A DNA stretch of 63,502 nt, filler included, from Circinaria calcarea (lineage: Eukaryota): the NCBI GenBank assembly GCA_051942165.1. It is 17 parts of 17 records of this genome, joined end to end, with 100 filler letters (N's around TTAATTAATTAA, not from the genome) between each part and the next. Parts side by side here need not be neighbours in the genome. Positions count along the whole stretch, not along the records: positions 56,146 to 59,774 come from JAVECS010002710.1; 16 more parts are not named here. One strand, 5' to 3'. Positions within the stretch are counted from its first letter, which is position 1. Every line of letters begins with the position of its first letter. Positions 49,154 through 63,502 of the stretch are shown here, piece after piece. The position numbers and the translations under genes are program-made. Under the pieces are notes generated by a model that worked only from the letters and a program-made list of their open reading frames with translations, was not told where the DNA came from and did not search any database.

Positions 49154-52153
49154 CTACAATTCATCCTTTACCTGTCCCTTCCCAGTTGGCTCCTCCGGCA
49201 CCTCCGGCACCTCAGTCGCTGCCGATCCTGCATCACTTGCTGTGGTCGAGTTGGTATCACTAACCGTGGTCGAAGACTTCGTGCTCTTACTCTTCTTCGC
49301 CGGTTTGGTCTTGCTCGTCTTGGGTTTATTCGAGCTCTTAGGTTTAGGGGGCACCTTCATCTTTCTGGAAAGCAGGCCCACAATAACCTTATTTAAGTCC
49401 TTGGACTTTGCCGCCATCTCTGACGATAGAAGGACCGGGTCATCGGTGGGCGACAGCTTCTTCTGTTCCGCCAGCTTCTCATCAAACCATGATTCGATAG
49501 TTGTGTATGCATTAGTCAAGTCGTCAAGGTCCTTTTCAGAGTATACAGGCGTTTCTGGTATCTTTGTGCTTGCCGGTGGTGCACTGGTGGTCGTCGGCTC
49601 ATCATCGAGATCAGCAAAGTCATCCACGACCGAAGAGGTTGTTGTAGCCTGAGAAAGGGATTCCGAAGACGAGGATTCCGAAGATGACGATGCTTCTGCT
49701 GCTGCTATCGAAGCTTTCTCCACTTGTTCTCGCATGACGCCAACCAACGTCCGAGTCTGCTCCAAGACTTGCTGTAGCAACTTGACCTCCTGCGGCCTCT
49801 TAATTGCTTCGTCCTTACGCTTCTGTATCGGATCCACGAGATCTCTAAGCTCCTTTAGTCGCAATTTTAGAGTCTCCCTATTGGCCTCCGCTCCATCGCC
49901 GTAAAGCCACTCACTGGTGCTCCTGAACTTTTCTTCAATCGTAGCACGCTCCGTTTCGGTTGACGCTGCAACAAACCCATCGTCTTCCAATAGGTCCCGC
50001 GCCTTATAGGTAAATGCTTCCAACGTATTCAAGGCTTCCTCACGTAATTTACGTGATCGATCCGAAGAATCGAACGAAGCCATTCTATCCTTGATGCGCC
50101 TCATTTCTGCGGAGCTAATCTGTGGTAAGCCGATGGGAGTGGTTGTAAACTCAACAAAAATGGTTTCGGTCTTTCTCTTGACATCTTTTGCTTTCTCGTC
50201 ACTCTTCGCGGCAGAGGTCTTTGGCTCAGAAGTTTTGCTCTCTAGTGGAGACAAAGTAGAAGATGACTTTACGTCGGTTTCAGACGATGTAAGATCCGCA
50301 TCATCATCATCTGACAGTGGTGCTTGATCGCCCTTTTTCGAACCAAATCCAAAAAACCCCTTAACGTCATCTACAACTCCTCCTTTCTTCTCCAAGTCTG
50401 TCGTCTCACAGCTCACAGAGCCACGGATAACCTCAGGAAGGCCGTCAGTAGGACTCAAACGCATTGCAAATTTAGTACTGATATTCGACACAGAACAGCC
50501 AAACTTATCTGTCAAATCCTTGACCGAGGCCGTGAGGTTCTTAGTTTGTACTTGTATTACGGGAACGTCTCTCGCAGATGATGAACCCTCCAAAATCTGC
50601 TGGTGGAGACTGAAGGAGAAGTCTTCAGTATTAGACTTGAAGGGTATCTGTTTCTCTGCCCCAACCTGGGAAGTTGGCAGAAAGAGTTTCTGCTGCCTCT
50701 CTTTCCCATCAGATGGCCATGATAAGCTGACAGCATGTACGGCAATGTCTGAAGCTTTGATCTCTTTGACTCGGAAGCTAGGACTAATCCCTGCAGCTTT
50801 AAATGCTGCTCCAAATACGGCAGCCTCATCGGAATTGACATTCGTCCTTATCTTTTCGGCGCTGCCTGTCACAGCTTCCAACTGCTTTTGAACAAATGGA
50901 GTCCGAACAGCGCCACCATGCAAGATGATGGACTCGAGATCGGCCAATTCTAGTTTAGCCATGCCTAGCGCTTGACTGATAGGAGTACGCGTCCGTTCCA
51001 GGTACACGGCTGTGAGCTCCTCGAATTCACTACGTGTCAATTTGTACTTGAAATTGACATCTTCATGGTGAAGACCTTCGAAGCTAGAAGATGTTTCGCT
51101 ATTCGCGCTCAGTACCTGTCGCATGCGCTCTGCTTCTTTCCATAGCTTCGCTATTGTTCTTCCGTTTTGTTTGACAAGCTCCACCCCTGCACCTAAGGAC
51201 TTCATTTGGTTCGTGGTAACGAACTTGCCAATCATGTCATCCAATATGGCCGCGTTAAACGCATCTCCTCCAAGAGTCTTGTCCCATCCGACGCCCATAA
51301 CCTGCACCTCTTGTATGGTCTTGTTGAACTTTCCCACATCTTTAACAGTTTTTCCTTGAAACCTCAAAATTGTTGCGGTAGTAGATCCAGCACCCATGTC
51401 GTAGACTAGATGATACTCCGGTTTGGCGCCTTCACTTGGGACTGGAAACGTCCTGGATGTGGCGTAGTTGAGACCGACTGATAGTCCATCTGTGATCAAT
51501 GCCAGGATTCGGAGCCCAGCCAGATCTGCTGCTGCTTCTATTGCCCTCTTTTCTTCTGCTGTATAGAATGCTGGGACTGTAATGACAACATCCCTGATTG
51601 TCGAGCCTTTGCCGGCAAAAGCTTCGGCATTGCCCTTAATATTCTGCAGTTCCATCGCCAGAAGTTCTTCTACCTTGAATGAATCCTCTTTCCCGCCTAA
51701 TATCTCGGTAGTGAACCCCACAGTTCCCAGACTCTTATCCTCCAACACGTGCAGCCTTGGATGTCTTGATTCATATTCGGCCACGACTGGATGGTCCTTC
51801 TTGCTCAAGCCCAGAAGAGGTTTGAGATTCGAGTAGATGTCGCCTGGGAATCTAGCAGACAAAGCTAATGCATCCCCTCCATACACCCTCTCAGGGAAAA
51901 GATCAGAATCTGACGACGACGACTTCGATTTCAATGGTTTGAATCCAACAGCGGCTGCTTCTTTCCGTTTGGAGTCTTTGGTCAAGATAATTTCGAGCGG
52001 GATGCCTGGCTTCACTAAGGCGGCCTTGATATACTCCGTTCCAAGGTCGATTCCCAAAACCGCAGAAGCTGCCGAAGCTGTGGATATATAGATCACTATA
52101 AGGAAGAACAGGATGAGTGGGCTGGCATTGCGCCGACGACCTGGGGGTGGCAT
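49154..52153 (-). CDS. LHS1: ER-lumenal Hsp70-like nucleotide exchange factor (Grp170/Lhs1), 999 aa, intronless
   Basis: Signal peptide, VLGIDLGTEYIK, YDMGAGST, LGGD, NSDEAAVFGA, C-terminal KDEL. Confidence 0.95.
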   Translation of the reverse strand: MPPPGRRRNASPLILFFLIVIYISTASAASAVLGIDLGTEYIKAALVKPGIPLEIILTKDSKRKEAAAVGFKPLKSKSSSSDSDLFPERVYGGDALALSARFPGDIYSNLKPLLGLSKKDHPVVAEYESRHPRLHVLEDKSLGTVGFTTEILGGKEDSFKVEELLAMELQNIKGNAEAFAGKGSTIRDVVITVPAFYTAEEKRAIEAAADLAGLRILALITDGLSVGLNYATSRTFPVPSEGAKPEYHLVYDMGAGSTTATILRFQGKTVKDVGKFNKTIQEVQVMGVGWDKTLGGDAFNAAILDDMIGKFVTTNQMKSLGAGVELVKQNGRTIAKLWKEAERMRQVLSANSETSSSFEGLHHEDVNFKYKLTRSEFEELTAVYLERTRTPISQALGMAKLELADLESIILHGGAVRTPFVQKQLEAVTGSAEKIRTNVNSDEAAVFGAAFKAAGISPSFRVKEIKASDIAVHAVSLSWPSDGKERQQKLFLPTSQVGAEKQIPFKSNTEDFSFSLHQQILEGSSSARDVPVIQVQTKNLTASVKDLTDKFGCSVSNISTKFAMRLSPTDGLPEVIRGSVSCETTDLEKKGGVVDDVKGFFGFGSKKGDQAPLSDDDDADLTSSETDVKSSSTLSPLESKTSEPKTSAAKSDEKAKDVKRKTETIFVEFTTTPIGLPQISSAEMRRIKDRMASFDSSDRSRKLREEALNTLEAFTYKARDLLEDDGFVAASTETERATIEEKFRSTSEWLYGDGAEANRETLKLRLKELRDLVDPIQKRKDEAIKRPQEVKLLQQVLEQTRTLVGVMREQVEKASIAAAEASSSSESSSSESLSQATTTSSVVDDFADLDDEPTTTSAPPASTKIPETPVYSEKDLDDLTNAYTTIESWFDEKLAEQKKLSPTDDPVLLSSEMAAKSKDLNKVIVGLLSRKMKVPPKPKSSNKPKTSKTKPAKKSKSTKSSTTVSDTNSTTASDAGSAATEVPEVPEEPTGKGQVKDEL

Positions 52154-53442
52154 GTTGTGGAGGTGAGGAAGACGAAGGGCTGTCTAAGAAGCTTCTCAAG
52201 GGGGTCTTATGGGTAACTCTAGAGTATACGACAGCTTCGGATATGATTGAACATGGGCAACGGAAATGACAGGATGCGCCCTTTGCGAGCAGTCGGGAAG
52301 ACCATCTTTCAGCACNNNNNNNNNNNNNNNNNNNNNNNNNNNNNNNNNNNNNNNNNNNNTTAATTAATTAANNNNNNNNNNNNNNNNNNNNNNNNNNNNN
52401 NNNNNNNNNNNNNNNGGGAAATAATCAGCTTGCGACTCATACCCGTTTCTACTCGCTCAAAGATCTCTCACTCACCTCTATCACCCTTTTTCGAAAGGGG
52501 AAGAATGACACATAAGCTCCGCGACTTCCTTCGCGGTTATCTCATATGTTTACCCCCAGATTGAAAACAGGAAGACGTGGCAGTAGGAAAGATGGAGAGT
52601 GCTTTGGAAACATTTGCATGGGGAAACTGATGGCTTGCCGGGGCTACTGTGGATACTTTATCTGATGGACCTCCCTTCGGGGTGACCCGGGTGATTTAGC
52701 GTTTTGTAGCTTTGGGAGATGGTCAGATATTAGATTGTGAGAATCGAAAGATCTGCGGCCACCCTAACTGGTCTCTCGTCCCTTGTACCCGTGACAGTGA
52801 CCCGTAGCTTTTACTGTAGTGGGAGGTAAAATCATTCATCTCTGATTTCCCCCCTTTTATCTCGGCAAGAACCCTCGCAGTTACAAATCCGGGACCTCTT
52901 GCTCCTTTTTTTTCCCCAGCTCCTAGACGGCTGACGGGTGGTAGATACACTTTAGGGTATGTTACGGGCTATGGCTTGATGTACAAGACTCGGTCTATAA
53001 GGCTCGGAGGGTACCTATTTACGAACATATAGAGTGGTGTTTGCCAGAGATGAGCGTATGCTCGGCTAATTGGTGTGCCGCCCGCCTACCATACCGTATT
53101 TATTTCAGCCTTACCATATGGTACCGGTATTCTAGTGCGCAATGTACCGCAGTCACTTCCAGCAGTCTAGGAGATACCAACCTTCAGACCGAAACAAAAA
53201 AATATAGTACATATCGCGTGGCTCTGGGTATTTACTTTATACACCCTTTGAAAATCGTCAACTTCCATCGCTGAGTTGAGACCTTCTTCTTTAGCCCAAG
53301 TTATTGGAAACCTATTAGGCCCAAGGCTTTGCGCGTGAGTTAATGGTTATAAGACGACGAAGTCTTGCAAGGAAAACAGCATTAGAAGTCCAAAGATTTG
53401 ATCCTTCTGCCCAGGTCCACACTAGTGTCTTTTCCAATCGCG

Positions 53443-55021
53443 ATGCCACCGTGGGTTTTGCGCCAGACAAACATCTTTTACTGGCTCAACCGCCAGCCCA
53501 TTGCATCCGCGGCCACAGTGACTTTCCCTTTTCCTTTCTTATTTGATTCCGAAGTAACCGCTACTTCTATCGGTTCTAAGAGAGTCCGGTATCGACAGAC
53601 TCATCTGGAATACTGGATTGATTGTCAGCCAATCCAGGCCCTTTCATCAGCATTCTCCTTTTTGGATTTCCCCAGAGGTACGTATTACGCTCCGTAGAGA
53701 TAGTGCCACCTGTATAGAGCTGCTGGCCTAATACTTTCTTGAACAAGAGCTTCGTGATGAGATTTACAGACTGCTGTACCCCATCGACCCCCCACCATAC
53801 CGAGATGGGGTTGATATCACCACCCGACTCTACGAGGATGGAGTATGGTACTGGGAACAGGATTGGCCGTCTATCTCTTTTCTTCTGACGTGTCGGACAG
53901 TCTACACGGAAGCAATACCTTTTTATTACGGTCACCAGAGATTCTGCTTTACGCTGCCATCTAAATTTCATCGACACTTGGTCTACGACTGGGTAAATCA
54001 TGACAGTCCTCTGATCTGGTTAAATAAAATTGGCTCTCGGAACTGCGAGTACATCCGTCATATCTCCATCAAGTTCGAAACGGACTATGTAGGTAGTGCT
54101 GGGAACCCAGACTACCTGGTTATGACTGAACTGGTGTGTCGGCTGATTAGACGACTTCCCGGACTAGAGAGTCTCTCTTTTGAGTTCGGCAGAAGTGATG
54201 ATTCGCCCCGTGATCCACCGGTTATTGTCCTCGCTGCCACGGAATCCCTTTCCAAACTCAGATACCTCTTTGCCTCGGTCATGCGCCACGGGTTAGTTGA
54301 TAACTCTCCAGTCGCCGAACTGCTGAAAAGAAGGTCAGCGCTACGGAACCCCTGCTATAGAGGAATCATGGAAGGCAGGATAACGGCATCATACCTCGAG
54401 GGTCCTGGATCCCTTGCGCTCTATGATGGCGCCGCGTACAGTATGCCCCGAGAACAACGTGTATCCAAATTCTGGCGGGATGTGGCGCCGATGAAAGAAT
54501 TAGAGATTGAGAACCAGATTACGCCACTGGAAATAAGGGCCATTCAAGTATCCCAAAAGGCCAACCTCGAGAACCTTGTCCTATTCGTCTTCAGAGACGC
54601 TATGTCGTCGGAACTTGCCAAAACTTTAAAGGGGTGCGTGAGAAGTATGGAGAAACTAAGATATTTAACCCTCCTTCCAAATTGCGCTTGGGCGACAGAA
54701 CGCGGACCGGTCCTACCTTGGCATCTCGACTCGTCCTTACTCACCTGCCTTCCACCAAGTATGGAAACTACTCTCCTGGTTCTGAGAGTGTCTGACCAGT
54801 CGGCATGTGAGTTACATTACGACACTTTGATTTCCCGATGCAAGAAGTTGCAACGCTTTCGCTGCGGGCATCTTGACGAGTCTGGTATGTTAGGATACCT
54901 AGAACCGCCACAGTCCGGTGTGGCGAAGTTGATCCACGCCGGAGTGGAAGCAAGTCTTTTTGATAGTTGGCATTATGCGCATTACACGCCACTTTCCGAA
55001 TCTGGGACGTGGCGTTACTAG
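53443..55021 (+). CDS. F-box-like/LRR-like protein, 2 exons (intron 53678-53747)
   Basis: Splicing gives FSFLDFPRELRDEIYRLL..FLLTCRTVYTEAIPFYYG..IG..IRHISI and continues in frame into ORF 53978..55021. Confidence 0.75.
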
Positions 55022-55914: not shown

Positions 55915-56045
55915 ATGAGATGAGGTGATGAGATGAGGTGATGAGATGAGGTGATGAGATGAGGTGATGAGATGAGGTGATGAGATGAGGTGATGAGATG
56001 AGGTGATGAGATGAGGTGATGAGATGAGGTGATGAGATGAGGTGA
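55915..56045. repeat. 13-bp minisatellite (ATGAGATGAGGTG)n, ~10 units, running off the contig end
   Basis: Perfect tandem copies. Confidence 0.95.
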
Positions 56046-56145
56046 NNNNNNNNNNNNNNNNNNNNNNNNNNNNNNNNNNNNNNNNNNNNTTAATTAATTA
56101 ANNNNNNNNNNNNNNNNNNNNNNNNNNNNNNNNNNNNNNNNNNNN

Positions 56146-56910
56146 AGAGTTGCCATCAACCCAGAGCACCCTCTGATCATCGCCGGCGAATGGATTGGTG
56201 CAGCAATCCAGAAAGGAGTCGCCATAGCTTCCCTCTCCAAGCGTTTTGTTATAATCTCGGTCTCCATCAACAACACCTGGCTTCCCAACTTTTCCTACGC
56301 TTCCATCCACAATGAACCTGCAGGCATATACAACATCTCACGTGCCGGATTTTACTACCAGTCTCTTGACCTTAACAACATACCAACGTCCACGGAAACT
56401 CTGCAGACCAGGACGAACGAAGTCGAGAGAGAATGCCCTTTTGCCAAAACCTTTGGCATCTCCGGCATTGGGGAGGGGATAGTCTGGAAAGCCACTACTC
56501 CACTCCTGTCCGGTCCCGACTTCTGGCTCAAGACGAAAGGGTCGTTGCATACAGTCACCAACTCCGCAACACTTCCCAAAGACACCATTAGCCTGGAGCA
56601 GAAGCAGCGAGCCGCGGTCTTCGCAAGAGCTATTGTGACGGAGATGCGCCTGAAACAAGGGTGGGACTACCTGGCAGAGACAGGGGTCGAACAGAGTAAG
56701 AGAGGAGTGAAGACCTTTTTGGATTGGATCTTGCAGGACTGCGAGACGGAAGAGAAGAGGGAGATTGAAGAAAAGGAAATTGGCCGTCGATTGCTGAAAT
56801 CGGAGATTGCTTCCATGGGGAGGCAGTGGTATTTTCGGCGCATGGAAGAAAAGGAAATGGAGGGGAAAGAAAAGGCAGTCCTAAGGGGTATAGAAGCGTT
56901 GACGGTATAG
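56146..56910 (+). CDS. Rnl2-family ATP-dependent RNA ligase, 3' 254 aa (5' truncated)
   Basis: Frame open from the contig start: IIAGEWIGAAIQKGV (motif III), KRFVII (IIIa), GEGIVWK (IV), WLKTKG (V), and a C-domain VTEMRL..ILQDCETEE. Confidence 0.82.
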   Translation, partial: RVAINPEHPLIIAGEWIGAAIQKGVAIASLSKRFVIISVSINNTWLPNFSYASIHNEPAGIYNISRAGFYYQSLDLNNIPTSTETLQTRTNEVERECPFAKTFGISGIGEGIVWKATTPLLSGPDFWLKTKGSLHTVTNSATLPKDTISLEQKQRAAVFARAIVTEMRLKQGWDYLAETGVEQSKRGVKTFLDWILQDCETEEKREIEEKEIGRRLLKSEIASMGRQWYFRRMEEKEMEGKEKAVLRGIEALTV

Positions 56911-56996
56911 AATAGAATAGAAAGTAGAATAGAGAGAATTGTGACGTCTTGATACCGCTTTGCTTTTCAATGCTTTTCGAGACCTTGCATTCGGTA

Positions 56997-57139
56997 TCCC
57001 TTAAACTGTTGCTCAGGCATCATGGACCGTGCGTTTGTTGAACGGACCAAATTCTGGCCCGTGCCCACCTAGCTGGCCAATACTAACCCTGTATCCAATA
57101 AACGCACGGTCCATGATGCCTGAGCAACAGTTTAAGGGA
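56997..57139. mobile_element. Putative MITE, 143 bp, long perfect inverted repeats, TA-flanked
   Basis: 56993-57036 is the exact reverse complement of 57100-57143 (44 bp including flanking GGTA/TACC). Confidence 0.75.
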
Positions 57140-59874
57140 TACCCATCAAGTTGAAACTTTGATCAAACTTGAATGACCGCTGGAATAAGACCGGCCCTGA
57201 CTCCGTACTCGGAGAAGTCAACGCACGTGCCCGCACGGGAGCCAAGATTAGCGCTGTGTCTGTGCCCGCTCTCGCCGCTTTACTCGAAAAGGTTCTGCAC
57301 AAACAATTTTACCTTGGCTGCCTGCGAACGAACGTCGGTTTGCATCTCATCATTGATCACCAAGGGTGAATGGGCTCCTGGCTGACGATACCTTGACGAT
57401 ACCTTGACGATTTCCTGACCTTCACACTCCGAGAGCTTGGGCTATGCTCGGGCAAAGGTCTCGCGAGTTGATATCGCTGTGGGGTACTGCAACTGCGGGC
57501 CGAATAGACTCCTGCTTACTGGACTTGTCGGATACAGAGTTCTCATCCTGAGAACGGGCAATGTAGTACTTGTGTTACAAATACGATACAAGATTTTTAA
57601 TACGTACAGTTGCGTTCTACAACCAAGGTTCCGGCCCCATATCTGTGTTGTGTAGGGAAATGGAACGTTTGAGCCATTACAACTGGACTATCCCTTGTGA
57701 GAATCTAACAGTATAAAAAACTCCCTGACAGCAAATTGGGTGTTAGCATAGGGAGCTTTGGTATGCTTCTCCATGTTTCGCAGCTCCTAGCATGTGCTAT
57801 TATCGTGAAAACCTAACTAATTACTATACATGGACTCGAGTCAGATGAGGCTTTAAGCTAATAATACCAGCAAGTAATGAGACACCCGACGCAATAAAGA
57901 GTGTATTAGGTCAAGCTCATGGTGGATGGAAGGCGAAAGGGGTCTTCCGCACGAGAAACAATGCGGTTGGAGCGACGTGTCATCCCATTCTGAAGCCAAA
58001 TTGGGTCGATGTATAAAGCAAAATTGAGAGGGATAGCTCTTCCTATAAGTTCGTGGCTGCTTCCTCCTACTGGGACCATGGGGAATTGATATATGCATTC
58101 TGAACAGGGTAGAACATGGCTAGGACCCATATCCGGAGTATTTTTGAACAAAAGAGAAATTCCCCCGCACCTACCTGCGGATCGTCGCTGAACATGTCCA
58201 GGTCGATGGACCGTTGTTCCATTTCGAAGGGCTCAAATGATGGATGGCCAACGAACCTGTTGACGCTTGGAAATGGCTCATTGTGTTCTACCGGTATGTC
58301 AGTATTGCCTAGAGGAAGTTCACTGTGGCCTAATGGTTGGCCATCGCTGCCTGGTGGCGGTCCATTGAAGCCTGGGAATAATACAGATCTTTGCTGTATG
58401 TTGGCACCTTGGTCATGACTAGACTCTGTCAATGCCCTCTCGAGCTCTTGCCGTTCGGGTACCTGACCCGTTTCAGACCACCATATGGGATAGAGTGAAG
58501 AGTCAGCGGCTTCGATCCTTGACCAAAGTTAGCGATGGACCAATTCAAATCCGTCTACCTTCCCTACCATCTAAGATGGGAAGTTTGTCCGAGATTGCTG
58601 TCCTCGGGAAAGCTGTTCTCGGGAAAGTCGTTCTCCTGTGTTGAGGGTTTCCTATTGATAAAGATACCTCTAACTGAAGAGCCGCTGATGAGTGATCAGT
58701 TTGGTGAAATACACACCAGCCACCTCAGTGCTTACAAGGACTGTTGTCTATACGCGTCGCTGTGCGCCACAGCATCCATGGGACTTTGGGGTTCTCCTTG
58801 TGAACTCATATTTGGCCGTTCGCTAAGCCTAGGCTTACGAAATCCCCACTGACGTCGTAGGCTTGCTCATTGTCATTCTCTAAGCACGGAGAGAAGTATT
58901 AATATTTAAGCATGATTGGAATTTAATTCATGCTTGGACTAACCGACGTCAAGAATGTACACGTCTCTAAACCTCCGTTGCACTTCGGGCAAAGTAAGGT
59001 CTTGCTTAATGTACCAATCTTTGAATTGAGCTTTATATAGCTCAAGCTCCTTGGTTGCTGCGGTTCGCACACCGCAAGAATTTGACCTTAGACTCGCCAT
59101 TGCCTGAGGCTATGTGTACAGTGAGGACTGTAAAGTGGAGAGAATCACTACGGCAATATTCTCACAAGACGATGCACTGCATACAACACTGATTTTTCTG
59201 GCGAAAGGACGGGTATTTATACCCCTCGGCCAAGCTCACGAGTTATTAAAACTAAGTTGGCGCTTCCAAGCTCACTCTATTGATATCCTGGGGAATACCC
59301 AAGTGACCATTCAGCTGCCCGACACTTATATCAATTGGCTCTATTTTCTGAGCTTGCAGCAGGCCATTAGACACAGAGTGTTATAATCGCATTTATGGTA
59401 CTAAGCAATGCACTCATGAGTCTCTAAGTTTAATCAAGGGGCGGGTCTTCTATTTTTAAACGGGCATGTAATTCGAGGGAGCGTCATGTAAATTAAAAAG
59501 GGCATCGTCCATTCCCGGAGGTTTTATTGTCCGCGCCTTGTAATCACGCCGCATCCCAGTCGCAATAACGCCGATTTTGAAAAGATCCTTCAAATTCGTC
59601 TTCCTCACCTAGATACACAGCGGGGCCTCCACCAGATAAATTCAAACCCTTTTACGGAAACCAATCATCCCCCCATCCACCGTTCACCTTCATAGCTAAA
59701 CTCCCCCTTCCCACCAAAGAAAATCCCCTAAAAAAAATGGCCCAAGCCCCCCTCAAATCCAAAAAACCCTCCTCNNNNNNNNNNNNNNNNNNNNNNNNNN
59801 NNNNNNNNNNNNNNNNNNTTAATTAATTAANNNNNNNNNNNNNNNNNNNNNNNNNNNNNNNNNNNNNNNNNNNN

Positions 59875-60654
59875 TTCCATATGTGATCCAGAAAGCCACT
59901 ACGATACCAGACACGATGCTGAACTCCTCGAGGACCAAGAGTGCTCCTCGAATTTCCGGAGGACTGATTTCTGAAATGTACAGCGGAGCTACCATGCTGA
60001 GCATGCCGACACCAACACCTCCAATCAACCGCGCGATCACGAGCATCGAATAGTCAATGGCCGCAGTCTGGAGGATTGAACCTAGGGTGAAGATGCACAC
60101 GGCTGCAAAGATGGAGTACTTTCTTGAATACTTGTCCGCAATCCAGCCTTGATTGAGGGCACCGATAAAGGCTCCTAGTTCAATCATTGCGGTCAACAAA
60201 CCCTTCCATAACCCAGAGCCAGCGATATTCCCAGAGACCCTGTTGAAGCGCGCAAGAAATTGTGGCATGACAAGGATAATCGACACCACCCCTTGACTGA
60301 GAGAGGTCAATTGGTCGTCCAGAAATAGGGGGCCATGAAGCCTACTTACTCATAGCCAAATACCTGTTGGATAATCAACATATTAACCAGGAATTTAAAT
60401 GTGGGGGTGGTATCATTACTAAACCCCCCAAGGTCGCAAACGCGGCACACAGCGCAGCATAGTGGTTTGCGAAGATTCCCTGGAACCCTACCCAGGTCAA
60501 CTTCCATACCAGAGGCCTTCGCCTTTACAAACAGCGTACCTGAACCTCCATAGGTCACTCGAGGTTCCCCAACGGCTTCAGTATGGTGGACAAAGGCATC
60601 ATCGCCATTGAATTGCGGGCCGACTTCATCAGTCTTTTTGTTTGTAGTCGCCAT
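59875..60654 (-). CDS. MFS sugar porter, 5' part, multi-exon
   Basis: FATLGGL/VFGYD/QGVVS, ADKYSRK, ARLIGGVGVG, PLYISEISPPEIRG. Confidence 0.92.
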
Positions 60655-61267: not shown

Positions 61268-62259
61268 TGATCTAGTGTTATCGCGGATAAATATTATACC
61301 ATGAGCGATAACAGCCAACCCCAAGAAGTTAGAAAAGAGGATGATAGTCGTAGAAAACGAACTGTAAACAAACATAAATTCATCACACATTCAAAGCAGT
61401 TACAAAACGGGATGACACTGGCGACGAGGACAACATAACAACTCAGTCGTCGCTGCACAAACCAATGGAAAGAGCACGTGGAAATGCGGAGATAGATGGG
61501 CTGCCGTGGAGCTCATATATACAAATTGGATCAGCTTCAAATACTCCCAGTCACACAACCGACCGTCAAGCCATTAGCAATCATGCTAATCAGGAGTCTA
61601 AGTCTCAAAGCTTATCTGCTACCGCGCGGCCATTCAGTTTGCAGCCTACTTTATCTTCACATTGGCCGTCTTTCCCAGCACCCGAGCACTCATATTCAAA
61701 AAAGCTAAGACCTCGGGCTGGTTCCCCAAGCCTATGTTGCAATGAGGTCATCGATAAGCCTCATTTATCGTCTTTGGAATTAGATACACCGATTTTCACG
61801 GTACGAATGTCACCCCACCAGATCTCGCTACACCCAGAGAAGTGAAAAGCAATTGCTGATAAGAACATCATCAGGCTCCCCTCAAAGGCTCCGAAATCTA
61901 CGAGTCTAACGGAAGATCTAATAATCCAGCCGATAAGAACTCCTTATTCAGCACCCAGAAAAATACACCGTGGAAACCAGAAAACTCAATCCCCTCTACT
62001 TTACCCTTTTCTTCCTATGGTCAGCCGTCCTTTGAACGAATCGATACTGCCGTCCCTCCTGATCTCGAGGCGGAGGACGTAAAAGTATTGAATGAAACTT
62101 GGCACCAAGTCGCAGGGCTAAAATCTGGCATTATGGTATGTAGGGTAGCTTCCTCAACACTACGCAGACTAAATCTAGCAGACTGTTCCATCAGCCCTGA
62201 GTACTGTAAGCTCAAAACAAAGATTTGTGTCACACATACTTCAACACCGATGCATTAGA

Positions 62260-63502
62260 ATGATGGATGGAGGATACGAAGGATTATTAGCCTATGGAAA
62301 AGAAACCGATTCTCCACCAGAACTGTCACACGTCAACCACTTAGTTTCATCAGACGAACCTCCAGACCAACCGGCTTTTAAAATTGCAGACGCAATTCGT
62401 GGGTTGTTAGATAACGACTACCCCGAAGCTGAATGGGAATCAGATCTTATAAAGCGGTATTTCTTTCGTCAGGCAACCAGCTTTCCTAATCCTCTCTCGT
62501 CTCAAAGTTTTGCCCGGAGATCTACCCAGCATGTGATAAATCCGGTGGTTTTACGGTCTGAGAAATCCAGCTACTGCAGCTACCCGCCTATCGTCACAAA
62601 AGATCCAAGGTATCGGCTATCAGACGGGATTACAGCTTCGAAAATCCCCTGGTACGAACCTTTGAATAAGCTTGGTCAAGTCCGCATTGATGCGTGGTAT
62701 GCAATTCACGATTCAATCTTTTGGGAAAATCACGAATTCCTTGGCCGTGCTTTGAATCGAGCAGAACTCCGAACACTTCTCCCGGCGTATCTTATGTTCC
62801 CCGATTCCGCTCAGATGTTACCTTACATAATCAACGAGTACAAAAAACTTGGGGGGAACATCAAATACGTAGGTGCATACCTAACGTTCATATGTGCCAC
62901 TATTCTCCATTCTCGCCTTAAACTTCGTGTAATGGCTGGTATGGAAACGATATGGCCTTGCGAGGACCTAACAATATGGTGCTTTACTACAGCTGGCACT
63001 ACGGTAGAATACATGCGCATGCAATTACGTCAGCCGGAAGAAGAAGGATCCTATATACATTTTGAAAGCGAGAAAAGAAAGACTTTCGACCTTCAACATA
63101 GTAATCAGAGAAATAATTTAAGACAGTTGATGCGGGTTGTTCATACTACGGGGCATACTACTCATGTGAAAGCTTTAAAAGACGAGGTAAAAGGTGCGGC
63201 GGCGAACTTACATAAGGATTGGACAAGATTGCTTGAAAAAGAGACGGCGTTCATTTGGCAAAAGAGAAAGAATGATACAGGTGAGAATCAAAGATGGGTG
63301 ATCAAATGGAAAAGAGTACCCGTTTCATACTCTGATCCAATAACACAATTCGACCTAGAGCAAGAAACTCAGAGGAGTAGATTTCATGGCGAGCAACAAA
63401 ATCAAGTGGTAAATGACAACACCGGAATTTTGCGGAACCAACTGATTATGATTAAGGACACCGAGCATTCGTCTACTTCGGATCAATCCCAAACCCCCCC
63501 CC
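62260..63502 (+). CDS. Uncharacterised protein with PD-(D/E)XK-like nuclease motifs; large exon open to the window end, upstream exons unresolved
   Basis: About 414 codons in which I found no stop by manual translation: VRIDAWYAI..MLPYIINEYKKLGG..DLTIWCFTTAGTTVEYMRM. Confidence 0.6.
   Translation, partial: MMDGGYEGLLAYGKETDSPPELSHVNHLVSSDEPPDQPAFKIADAIRGLLDNDYPEAEWESDLIKRYFFRQATSFPNPLSSQSFARRSTQHVINPVVLRSEKSSYCSYPPIVTKDPRYRLSDGITASKIPWYEPLNKLGQVRIDAWYAIHDSIFWENHEFLGRALNRAELRTLLPAYLMFPDSAQMLPYIINEYKKLGGNIKYVGAYLTFICATILHSRLKLRVMAGMETIWPCEDLTIWCFTTAGTTVEYMRMQLRQPEEEGSYIHFESEKRKTFDLQHSNQRNNLRQLMRVVHTTGHTTHVKALKDEVKGAAANLHKDWTRLLEKETAFIWQKRKNDTGENQRWVIKWKRVPVSYSDPITQFDLEQETQRSRFHGEQQNQVVNDNTGILRNQLIMIKDTEHSSTSDQSQTPP

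What the first reader, a model, noticed from the sequence alone, without database searches (positions are those of the whole stretch)
56146..56910. Phage/virus-type Rnl2 RNA ligase in a fungal contig
Seen: intronless 254-aa frame with nucleotidyltransferase motifs III, IIIa, IV and V plus a helical C-domain VTEMRL..QDCETEE; the ORF track shows only its last 121 aa, and motif I is cut off. Known: this layout is that of T4 Rnl2 and kinetoplastid editing ligases, whose C-domain carries essential Arg and Asp residues, whereas fungal tRNA splicing uses the Rnl1-like Trl1. Inference: an uncharacterised fungal RNA nick-repair enzyme, possibly horizontally acquired and acting against ribotoxins or in antiviral conflict. 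Best lead in the window.
Basis: partly seen in the sequence, partly recalled or inferred. Interest (0 to 1): 0.7.

Follow-up and report, generated by a model that had tools for sequence, protein, structure and literature searches.

The report
Ancient phage-type RNA ligase in fungi
This is the back part of an intact fungal gene for an RNA-joining enzyme of the T4 phage Rnl2 type; many moulds, lichen fungi and chytrids keep a related gene, the mould and lichen version has lost a normally fixed ATP-gripping residue, and we found no paper that studies it.

Summary
Observation confirmed. The 254-codon frame is the 3' part of an intact, intronless 354-aa gene. Its start and motif I (KLHG) lie on contig C446, which overlaps this contig by 134 identical bases. 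Fold and profile place it with Rnl2 ligases: T4 Rnl2 is the top Foldseek hit, and the catalytic residues and C-domain Arg/Asp/Glu are kept.

It is not a recent foreign gene. It sits in a Pezizomycotina-wide clade under purifying selection, whose nearest named kin are chytrid and blastoclad proteins; phage and bacterial forms (about 23-37% identical) lie outside.

New feature: the adenine-stacking motif IIIa Phe is aromatic in only 4 of 151 Pezizomycotina-clade sequences, against 115 of 116 viral and 75 of 75 bacterial ones. No end-healing partner is fused or adjacent in fungi, so stand-alone ribotoxin repair is unlikely. Best reading: a ligase sealing 3'-OH/5'-phosphate nicks in duplexes, for stress repair; activity and role untested. 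Databases already label relatives 'RNA ligase domain-containing'.

The parts
56046..56145 (.). Artificial spacer (N44-TTAATTAATTAA-N44) between unrelated contigs; not part of the gene
   Evidence: The same spacer recurs 16 times, about every 3.74 kb; the finding's contig is G000:C2710, 3,629 bp
56146..56910 (+). Codons 101-354 and stop of an intronless Rnl2-type RNA ligase gene. Codons 1-100, with the ATG (C446:13838) and motif I Lys38 (C446:13949), lie outside the window on G000:C446
   Evidence: full-length relatives P0003 and P0004 are also 354 aa, 82% and 81% identical
56146..56279 (+). 134-bp exact overlap with the end of contig C446 (assembly break)
   Evidence: a contig of a related organism in run X1 runs without gaps from before motif I through this overlap
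56182..56199 (+). Motif III AGEWIG (Glu115 = T4 Rnl2 Glu99)
56245..56259 (+). Motif IIIa, FVIIS: Ile137 (56254-56256) stands where T4 Rnl2 has Phe119, and Ser138 where it has Asp120
56473..56490 (+). Motif IV EGIVWK (Glu210 = T4 Glu204, Val213 = Val207, Lys215 = Lys209)
56530..56538 (+). Motif V KTK (Lys229 and Lys231 = T4 Lys225 and Lys227)
56578..56856 (+). All-helical C-domain with Arg268 (56647), Asp298 (56737) and Glu302 (56749) = T4 Arg266, Asp292, Glu296
   Evidence: Invariant in 57 of 57 C-domain sequences; model pLDDT 93.9
56993..57143 (.). 151-bp MITE with 48-nt terminal inverted repeats, 82 bp past the stop; ties the contig to the host genome
   Evidence: matches on 30 other contigs, a lower bound

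Best explanation
A stand-alone, ATP-dependent Rnl2-type polynucleotide ligase that fungi have inherited vertically for a very long time. Chemistry (inferred from conserved residues; about 85% that it is an active ligase): Lys38 attacks ATP to form ligase-AMP, AMP passes to a 5'-phosphate, and an RNA 3'-OH attacks to seal the strand. The helical C-domain with its Arg268-Asp298 pair recognises a nick in a duplex, as in T4 Rnl2 (about 60-65% that nicked duplexes are the preferred substrate). It carries no healing domain, so its direct substrates are clean 3'-OH/5'-phosphate breaks. I commit to general stress repair of such nicks as the role (about 40-45%): RNA patches left in DNA by repair synthesis or RNase H-type cuts, and RNase III- or slicer-type nicks in structured RNA. 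The Pezizomycotina branch does this with a rebuilt nucleotide pocket: Ile/Leu/Val for the stacking Phe, His for T4 Asn40, Val for Glu34. Origin: one old gain from the phage/virus/bacterial pool by a eukaryote at or before early fungi, followed by patchy loss. Shown: gene integrity, family, fold, residue pattern, selection, neighbours. Inferred: activity, substrate, role, direction of transfer.
For: Intact 354-aa gene, single copy in G000. Model pLDDT 95.5; top Foldseek PDB hits are full-length T4 Rnl2 (2HVR E 8.5e-9), then its NTase fragment and TbREL1; VIA Z 15.8 to TbREL1 (rmsd 3.2, 207 aligned) and to T4 Rnl2 NTase (rmsd 3.4, 195), tied with NgrRnl Z 15.1. Profile against T4 Rnl2 aligns through the C-domain, E 4.9e-7. 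K38, H40, R59, E115, E210, K229, K231, R268, D298 and E302 are kept in 146-151 of 151 clade rows. dN/dS 0.07-0.32 in the 17 of 21 locus pairs that gave a value. Clade support 98-100 SH-aLRT, with class-level groups recovered. Lineage-level synteny with housekeeping genes. Precedent: nick-sealing DraRnl protects Deinococcus against radiation (PMC5397189 abstract).
Against: No activity, expression or phenotype data. A Phe-to-Leu change at motif IIIa cripples nick joining in DraRnl while sparing steps 1 and 3 (PMC1807946 passage), and this clade has Ile/Leu/Val there with no new aromatic at the opposite face (Val213 kept). T4 Glu34, Asn40 and Asp120 are not kept. The C-domain folded alone matches T4 Rnl2 only weakly (Foldseek E 4.2, TMq 0.55, rmsd 2.9 over 81 columns). 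Some phage and bacterial relatives are fused to or sit near RNA-repair genes, which fits a conflict role better. Backbone tree support is only 83-92, and one origin for all fungal copies is not rejected (p 0.215) but not shown. The genomic context of the chytrid copies was not seen; some could lie in integrated giant viruses.
Confidence: 0.55

Rival explanations
1. Conflict-repair ligase: it reseals tRNA or rRNA cut by ribotoxins or anticodon nucleases, or acts in virus-host conflict, using healing enzymes encoded elsewhere (Trl1 kinase and phosphodiesterase, or a separate Pnkp).
For: A relative outside the fungal clade, P0237, is a kinase + metallophosphoesterase + ligase fusion. Some phage and bacterial loci have RtcB, HD + AAA_33, RlaP, Thg1 or metallophosphoesterase genes nearby. 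Bdelloid rotifers induce horizontally acquired RNA ligases against a fungal pathogen (PMC11258130 passages). Two fungal gene models join the ligase to a HET domain, and one locus has a HET neighbour. The genome has intact Trl1 with healing domains.
Against: Toxin cuts leave 2',3'-cyclic phosphate and 5'-OH ends, which Rnl2 enzymes cannot join unhealed (established knowledge). No healing domain among 200 neighbouring ORFs from 18 representative metagenome loci plus the own flanks, nor in the long fungal forms. Single copy, purifying selection and stable synteny are unlike an arms-race gene. The HET fusions may be merged gene models.
Confidence: 0.22
2. Chemistry-shifted enzyme: loss of the stacking Phe and the other pocket changes turned the Pezizomycotina protein into something other than a plain ATP nick ligase, for example one that uses GTP or several NTPs, seals only pre-adenylylated ends (clearing abortive AppN ends), or mainly adenylylates or circularises RNA.
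For: 146 of 151 clade rows carry a non-aromatic residue at motif IIIa (Ile 60, Leu 51, Val 22, Cys 9, Thr 3, Met 1), 4 are aromatic and 1 is a gap; 48 of 49 distinct metagenome ORFs are also non-aromatic. DraRnl F281L keeps steps 1 and 3 but loses overall sealing. Clade-specific Lys7, Lys11 and Ser138 fall in or near the pocket-forming segments (placement inferred).
Against: Every step-2 residue and the C-domain triad that T4 Rnl2 needs for nick adenylylation is kept. A single mutant in another family does not predict a change buffered over long evolution. Model coordinates could not be inspected.
Confidence: 0.15
3. RNA-silencing accessory: it seals Argonaute-slicer or Dicer-type nicks, or joins RdRP products, and so tunes silencing.
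For: Slicing leaves a 3'-OH/5'-phosphate nick in a duplex, the Rnl2 substrate; repair of guide-directed damage has been proposed for Rnl2 and Rnl5 (PMC4408790 passage). An RdRP gene lies about 5 kb upstream in L142 and L153.
Against: The RdRP link was seen in only 2 of 18 representative loci, both of one related syntenic group, and not in the own genome's flanks.
Confidence: 0.06
4. Inactive or decaying foreign gene.
For: Several T4 Rnl2 pocket residues are not kept; 3 of 80 metagenome loci have the match split over two frames.
Against: Intact frame, near-invariant catalytic residues, dN/dS well below 1, and retention across four classes.
Confidence: 0.02

Closest known systems
T4 RNA ligase 2 (Rnl2; PDB 2HVQ, 2HVR)
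   Same: NTase domain plus helical C-domain; KxHG motif I; K35, H37, R55, E99, E204, K209, K225, K227, R266, D292 and E296 all have counterparts.
   Different: About 21% identity. E34 is Val, N40 His, R33 Thr, F119 Ile, D120 Ser. NCBIfam gives no family hit, and Pfam lists no T4 Rnl2 C-domain model among the hits.
phrog_548 'RNA ligase 2' of large phages (PVP-SE1/Vequintavirinae, Vibrio Thalassavirus, Cr30, Lbo-JY46, phiW-14) and cyanobacterial and myxobacterial homologs
   Same: Closest cultured kin: full-length matches at 30-37% in the best of 159 phage records. They share GTVKLHG, the CP..FG.xGxGEG motif (viral rows) and the C-domain triad.
   Different: They keep Asn at position 43 (113 of 116 viral, 74 of 75 bacterial rows) and the IIIa Phe (115 of 116, 75 of 75). 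I know of no biochemical study of them (recalled), so they lend a name, not a tested function.
Kinetoplastid RNA-editing ligases REL1/REL2 (PDB 1XDN) and Diplonema DpRNL
   Same: Eukaryotic Rnl2 members; NTase fold Z 15.8, rmsd 3.2 over 207 residues; PF09414.
   Different: REL1 stacks adenine on F209, works in the mitochondrial editosome and binds an OB-fold partner. The fungal protein has no N-terminal extension before the NTase domain and no known partner; 12-16% identity.
Rnl5 ligases (DraRnl, NgrRnl; reported from 13 fungal genera)
   Same: Nick-sealing ligases with motif I His and a Thr two residues before the Lys; NTase fold Z 15.1.
   Different: Rnl5 is defined by an N-terminal OB-like module and has no C-domain; this protein has the reverse layout. 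TIGR02306 finds nothing in G000.
Fungal tRNA ligase Trl1
   Same: Same NTase superfamily (Z about 10); present and intact in this genome.
   Different: Trl1 is a three-domain healing and sealing enzyme for 2',3'-cyclic-phosphate/5'-OH breaks; unrelated C-domain; much longer.

Membership tests
Covalent nucleotidyltransferase (ATP-dependent ligase) superfamily | Motif I KxxG lysine with motifs Ia, III, IV and V in an NTase fold | tested here: met
   K38 on C446; R59, E115, E210, K229, K231; fold
Covalent nucleotidyltransferase (ATP-dependent ligase) superfamily | Motif IIIa aromatic that stacks on the purine, flanked by Asp | tested here: not met
   Ile137 and Ser138; aromatic in 4 of 151 clade rows. 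Feature as described in PMC1807946. The register is gap-free against chytrid and viral rows, but it was read from sequence alignment, not from coordinates.
Rnl2 family | His two residues after the motif I Lys (KxHG) | tested here: met
   KLHG; H in 146 of 151 rows; signature stated in PMC1807946
Rnl2 family | Alpha-helical C-domain homologous to T4 Rnl2 244-329, with the Arg266-Asp292 pair (sequence level) | tested here: met
   Profile alignment runs through the C-domain with R268/R266, D298/D292, E302/E296; full-length Foldseek alignment of 347 columns to 2HVR; pair described in PMC4599027
Rnl2 family | C-domain fold matches T4 Rnl2 when searched alone | tested here: inconclusive
   Foldseek rank 3, E 4.2, TMq 0.55 (highest TMq among the rows shown), rmsd 2.9 over 81 columns; not among the 50 VIA rows shown
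Rnl2 family | Signature Glu34 and Asn40 flanking the active-site Lys (recalled from Yin, Ho and Shuman 2003; not seen in any call) | tested here: not met
   Val37 and His43. Phage members of phrog_548 also lack the Glu but keep the Asn, so the strict T4-type signature is missed and the protein is filed as an Rnl2-like variant.
Rnl2 family | Pfam PF09414 above the curated cut-off | tested here: met
   5 of 5 full-length relatives score 28.1-44.1 bits against a cut-off of 27; each half of the own gene alone is below cut-off
Rnl2 family | Seals 3'-OH(RNA)/5'-phosphate nicks in duplexes through ligase-AMP and AppN | not testable with these tools
   Needs biochemistry; reaction as in PMC3884662 abstract
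Rnl5 family | N-terminal OB-like module and no C-domain | tested here: not met
   The NTase match starts at residue 1 and a C-domain follows; TIGR02306 has no hit in G000 or in the proteins scanned
Rnl1/Trl1 family | PF09511 domain, with fused kinase and phosphodiesterase in Trl1 | tested here: not met
   No PF09511 hit on the protein or its relatives; the genome's PF09511 match is a separate Trl1 gene
Pnkp-ligase (heal-and-seal) RNA repair system | End-healing kinase/phosphatase fused or encoded next to the ligase | tested here: not met
   None in 200 ORFs around fungal copies or in long fungal forms; found only in a non-fungal relative and some phage loci. A partner elsewhere in the genome is not excluded.

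The most novel reading that the evidence does not exclude
Filamentous ascomycetes carry an unrecognised further RNA-ligase lineage, taken long ago from the virus world (possibly by way of giant viruses, which still infect zoosporic fungi and one of which carries the same motif I signature). In Pezizomycotina its nucleotide pocket was rebuilt without the near-universal purine-stacking aromatic, giving a different cofactor or step specificity and a nucleic-acid repair route that budding yeast models do not show.
Probability: 0.2. Interest if true: 0.75.

Novelty: new variant of a known kind. Interest (0 to 1): 0.46.

Why it matters
Fungal RNA ligation is usually told through Trl1 alone, with Rnl5 as a noted curiosity. 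A conserved Rnl2-type ligase across lichen-forming, endophytic and plant-associated ascomycetes and chytrids gives a knockout-ready, eukaryotic handle on an open question: what nick-sealing RNA ligases do outside kinetoplastid editing. The natural loss of the motif IIIa aromatic, kept under purifying selection, is a ready experiment on how ligases bind ATP and might yield a ligase with new substrate tolerance. It is not a new class of system, and databases already tag the domain.

Tried and rejected
Recent transfer into this genome: rejected. The gene nests among fungal orthologs (82% to P0003, 55% to Icmadophila), and its GC3 of 0.62 is only modestly above four host genes (0.51-0.54).

Non-fungal contig: rejected (MITE on 30 other contigs; the flank on C446 holds a fungal transcription-factor gene and a GRDP-like gene).

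Direct descent of the Pezizomycotina clade from PVP-SE1/Chester-type phages (p-AU 0.0098) or from the giant-virus copy L091 (p-AU 0.0043): rejected. Grouping with phages and bacteria apart from all other His43 rows: borderline (p-AU 0.043). These groups were named after I had seen the trees, and a 40-row quick tree was used. The careful tree did not finish; one search reports the quick PMSF tree in its place.

The second PF09414 hit in G000 has the layout of DNA ligase IV (read from sequence); that search missed the split gene itself, so it is insensitive. AAA_33 search of G000 for a healing kinase: 8 unspecific matches, not followed. Expression: no RNA holder listed; no evidence either way. 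PDB sequence search with the fragment: no match. VIA search of the C-domain alone listed no Rnl2 chain among 50 rows. A P0174-seeded scan of viral contigs found no relative. Recurrent antisense ORFs over the ligase were not pursued.

Literature searches that found no paper on this family: (22 papers, 20 listed; 0; 5; 0; 14; 3; 0; 0), judged from listings and abstracts. Burroughs and Aravind 2016, the survey most likely to list it, is not held. Six of ten supplements of PMC13533422 could not be read, so the type of the Mycodnaviridae 'RNA ligase' is unknown. No complex prediction or Atlas search was run: no binding claim is made and the family is known.

Full report
**Observation.** The window is a string of short contigs joined by artificial spacers. 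The finding begins at the first base of one of them, G000:C2710 (3,629 bp), and reads open for 254 codons to a stop at 56910. A search of the own genome gave two matches, both to this gene: C2710 itself and the end of C446. The last 134 bases of C446 are identical to the first 134 of C2710, and the frame on C446 runs from an ATG through GTVKLHG into the overlap. Together they give an unbroken 354-codon gene. Two unnamed relatives are also 354 aa, 82% and 81% identical. A contig from a biocrust run, 90-95% alike, crosses from before motif I through the overlap with no gap; 17 of its 28 listed differences fall on third codon positions (my count). A 151-bp MITE with 48-nt inverted arms follows the stop and matches 30 other contigs; the C446 flank holds a fungal transcription-factor gene and a GRDP-like gene. 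The contig is fungal.

**Family.** The fragment scores weakly on Pfam PF09414 (E 0.021), but 5 of 5 full-length relatives pass the cut-off. PHROG 548 'RNA ligase' matches end to end (E 1.1e-38 for P0003). NCBIfam gives nothing for 7 of 7 queries. A model of P0003, the 82%-identical full-length stand-in, has pLDDT 95.5. Its best Foldseek matches are full-length T4 Rnl2, then the T4 Rnl2 NTase fragment and trypanosome REL1. VIA-align ties REL1, T4 Rnl2 and Naegleria Rnl5 at Z 15-16 over the NTase domain, so the C-domain decides the family. A profile of 105 sequences aligns to T4 Rnl2 through the C-domain (E 4.9e-7) and puts R268, D298 and E302 on T4 R266, D292 and E296; these are invariant in 57 of 57 C-domains. 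The C-domain folded alone finds T4 Rnl2 only weakly (E 4.2, TMq 0.55, rmsd 2.9) and not among the VIA rows shown, so that test is inconclusive. The layout (NTase first, helical C-domain, KxHG) is Rnl2-like, and is neither Rnl5 nor Trl1. The genome also has an intact Trl1, and no Rnl5 was found (incomplete genome).

**What differs.** In a 516-row alignment the catalytic residues K38, H40, R59, E115, E210, K229 and K231 are kept in 146-151 of the 151 rows of the Pezizomycotina clade. Three pocket features are not T4-like. First, Glu34 and Asp120 of T4 are Val and Ser/Ala/Gly across the whole subfamily, phages included. Second, T4 Asn40 is His, with Asp two residues on, in 149 of 151 Pezizomycotina rows and 6 of 6 named chytrid and blastoclad rows, but Asn in 113 of 116 viral and 74 of 75 bacterial rows. 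Third, the motif IIIa Phe, which stacks on adenine in REL1 (PMC4599027 passage), is kept in 115 of 116 viral, 75 of 75 bacterial and 6 of 6 chytrid/blastoclad rows, but is aromatic in only 4 of 151 Pezizomycotina rows; 48 of 49 distinct metagenome ORFs agree. The residue on the other face of the base stays Val. In DraRnl the Phe-to-Leu change cripples nick joining but spares steps 1 and 3 (PMC1807946 passage). The viral set holds near-copies and repeats between two scans, so its counts are not independent. The register comes from sequence; I could not view coordinates.

**Distribution and origin.** The fragment finds 337 relatives; named ones among the best 120 are Lecanoromycetes, Leotiomycetes, Dothideomycetes and one Xylobotryomycete (the other class assignments are recalled). 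No yeast, Sordariomycete, Eurotiomycete or Basidiomycete name appeared, but most rows are unnamed and only 120 were listed, so absence is not shown. The wider subfamily has 3,535 clusters at 50% identity, with 159 phage records, 75 prokaryote loci and many viral contigs. All four trees recover the Pezizomycotina clade (support 98-100), with Leotiomycetes and Pleosporales-Mytilinidiales groups inside it. Its nearest named kin are Powellomyces, Thoreauomyces, Geranomyces, Nowakowskiella and the blastoclad Paraphysoderma. In the mixture-model tree these form a 31-row group with unnamed rows (support 89), inside a 45-row group (92) that holds all His43 rows; phages and bacteria lie outside (quick tree; the careful search did not finish). 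One IMG/VR contig carries the His43 signature; it is a giant virus and branches near the base of that group. AU tests reject the Pezizomycotina clade as sister to cultured phages (p 0.0098) or to that virus (p 0.0043), barely reject its grouping with phages and bacteria (p 0.043), and do not reject one clade of all named fungi (p 0.215) (groups named after seeing trees, 40 rows). The gene lies in a single frame in 77 of 80 metagenome loci (some cut by contig ends, two probably not fungal), and dN/dS is 0.07-0.32 in the 17 of 21 pairs that gave a value. The reading is an old gain from the virus/prokaryote pool, then vertical descent. Direction rests on rooting with distant outgroups. Giant viruses do infect chytrids and blastoclads, and one such virus has an 'RNA ligase' of unstated type (PMC13533422 abstract and section 6), so some chytrid copies may be viral; I did not see their context.

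**Partners.** I scanned 200 ORFs of 135 aa or more from 18 representative metagenome loci and the own flanks. They are ordinary genes, syntenic only within lineages; none is a polynucleotide kinase, phosphatase, cyclic phosphodiesterase or Hen1. Short exons would be missed. Long fungal forms carry low-complexity inserts or HET/DUF domains that may be merged models. By contrast one non-fungal relative is a kinase-phosphoesterase-ligase fusion, and a minority of phage and bacterial loci have RtcB, HD + AAA_33, RlaP, Thg1 or metallophosphoesterase neighbours.

**How it most likely works.** T4 Rnl2 seals 3'-OH/5'-phosphate nicks whose 3' strand is RNA, in three steps (PMC3884662 abstract), and needs its C-domain for nick recognition and step 2 (PMC1807946 passage). 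The fungal protein keeps that apparatus, so the same chemistry is the best inference. Ribotoxins leave cyclic-phosphate and 5'-OH ends (established knowledge); without a healer this enzyme cannot act on them directly, and whether it accepts the 2'-phosphate ends left by Trl1 is unknown. A single-copy, slowly evolving, syntenic gene looks like maintenance rather than arms race. I therefore favour stress repair of clean nicks in RNA or RNA-patched DNA, by analogy with DraRnl (PMC5397189 abstract; PMC4408790 passage), at 0.55 for the whole statement. Conflict repair with healing in trans stays at 0.22, helped by the rotifer precedent (PMC11258130 passages). A shift in chemistry tied to the lost Phe is 0.15. 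None of these was tested, and no RNA run was listed.

**Novelty.** Rnl2 enzymes are described as scarce in eukaryotes, with a known role only in kinetoplastids (PMC4599027 passages); the fungal nick-sealing candidates named in the papers I read are Rnl5. Ten searches of the open library found no paper on this family, judged from listings, abstracts and passages. Burroughs and Aravind 2016 is not held and may list it. UniRef already names relatives 'RNA ligase domain-containing protein'. Verdict: a real, intact, uncharacterised variant of a known enzyme kind; interest 0.46.

Noticed in passing
window 1-63502: The window is a string of about 3.6-kb contigs joined by N44-TTAATTAATTAA-N44 spacers; neighbours across a spacer are not real neighbours.
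   Followed up: yes
L217 / L091 / L292 (IMG/VR contig, ligase at L217:7932-8918): A 71% GC giant-virus contig (NCLDV major capsid, GH46 chitosanase, LPMO10, ion channel, eIF-1A, patatin) is the only viral contig with the fungal-type motif I signature in a pattern scan. Its chitin-active genes would fit a chitin-walled host; not tested.
   Followed up: partly
protein P0237: 781-aa fusion of AAA_33 kinase, metallophosphoesterase and this ligase subfamily: an all-in-one heal-and-seal enzyme with an Rnl2-type ligase; it groups with viral rows.
   Followed up: partly
proteins P0127-P0129, P0135, P0375 (Monilinia): Forms with a roughly 300-aa low-complexity insertion between motif V and the C-domain.
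   Followed up: no
proteins P0376 (Cadophora), P0378 (Neofusicoccum); L118:3377-5047: Ligase joined to a HET domain in two gene models, in opposite orders, and a HET gene next to the ligase in L118; may be merged models or chance, given how many HET genes these fungi have.
   Followed up: partly
L142:1-858 and L153:286-2195: An RNA-dependent RNA polymerase gene about 5 kb upstream of the ligase, with pantothenate kinase downstream, in a group of related loci.
   Followed up: partly
L132, L159, L161, L164, L170: Conserved indoleamine dioxygenase gene upstream of the ligase in all five, with a translational GTPase (GTPBP1-like by my reading) beyond it in four.
   Followed up: partly
L023-L079 (cyanobacteria, myxobacteria, spirochaetes): A bacterial clade of this subfamily; over all 75 bacterial rows motif I reads KxDG in 39 and the Cys of the CP motif is Asp in 55.
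   Followed up: no
L092, L109, L042, L213, L115, L260: Sporadic RNA-repair neighbours of phage and bacterial relatives: RtcB, HD + AAA_33, RlaP, Thg1, metallophosphoesterase.
   Followed up: partly
window 58067-58528 (-): 153-aa open frame downstream on the same contig, no Pfam match; probably an exon of a gene cut by the contig end.
   Followed up: no
window 55918-56045: A 13-bp tandem repeat ends the preceding contig; unrelated to the ligase.
   Followed up: no
window 49154-52183 (-), 53732-55021 (+), 59819-60349 (-), 62179-63501 (-): Other long frames: an ER Hsp70-like protein ending in KDEL, a 429-aa frame, a sugar-transporter exon and a 441-aa frame; names are my reading of the sequence, not tested.
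   Followed up: no
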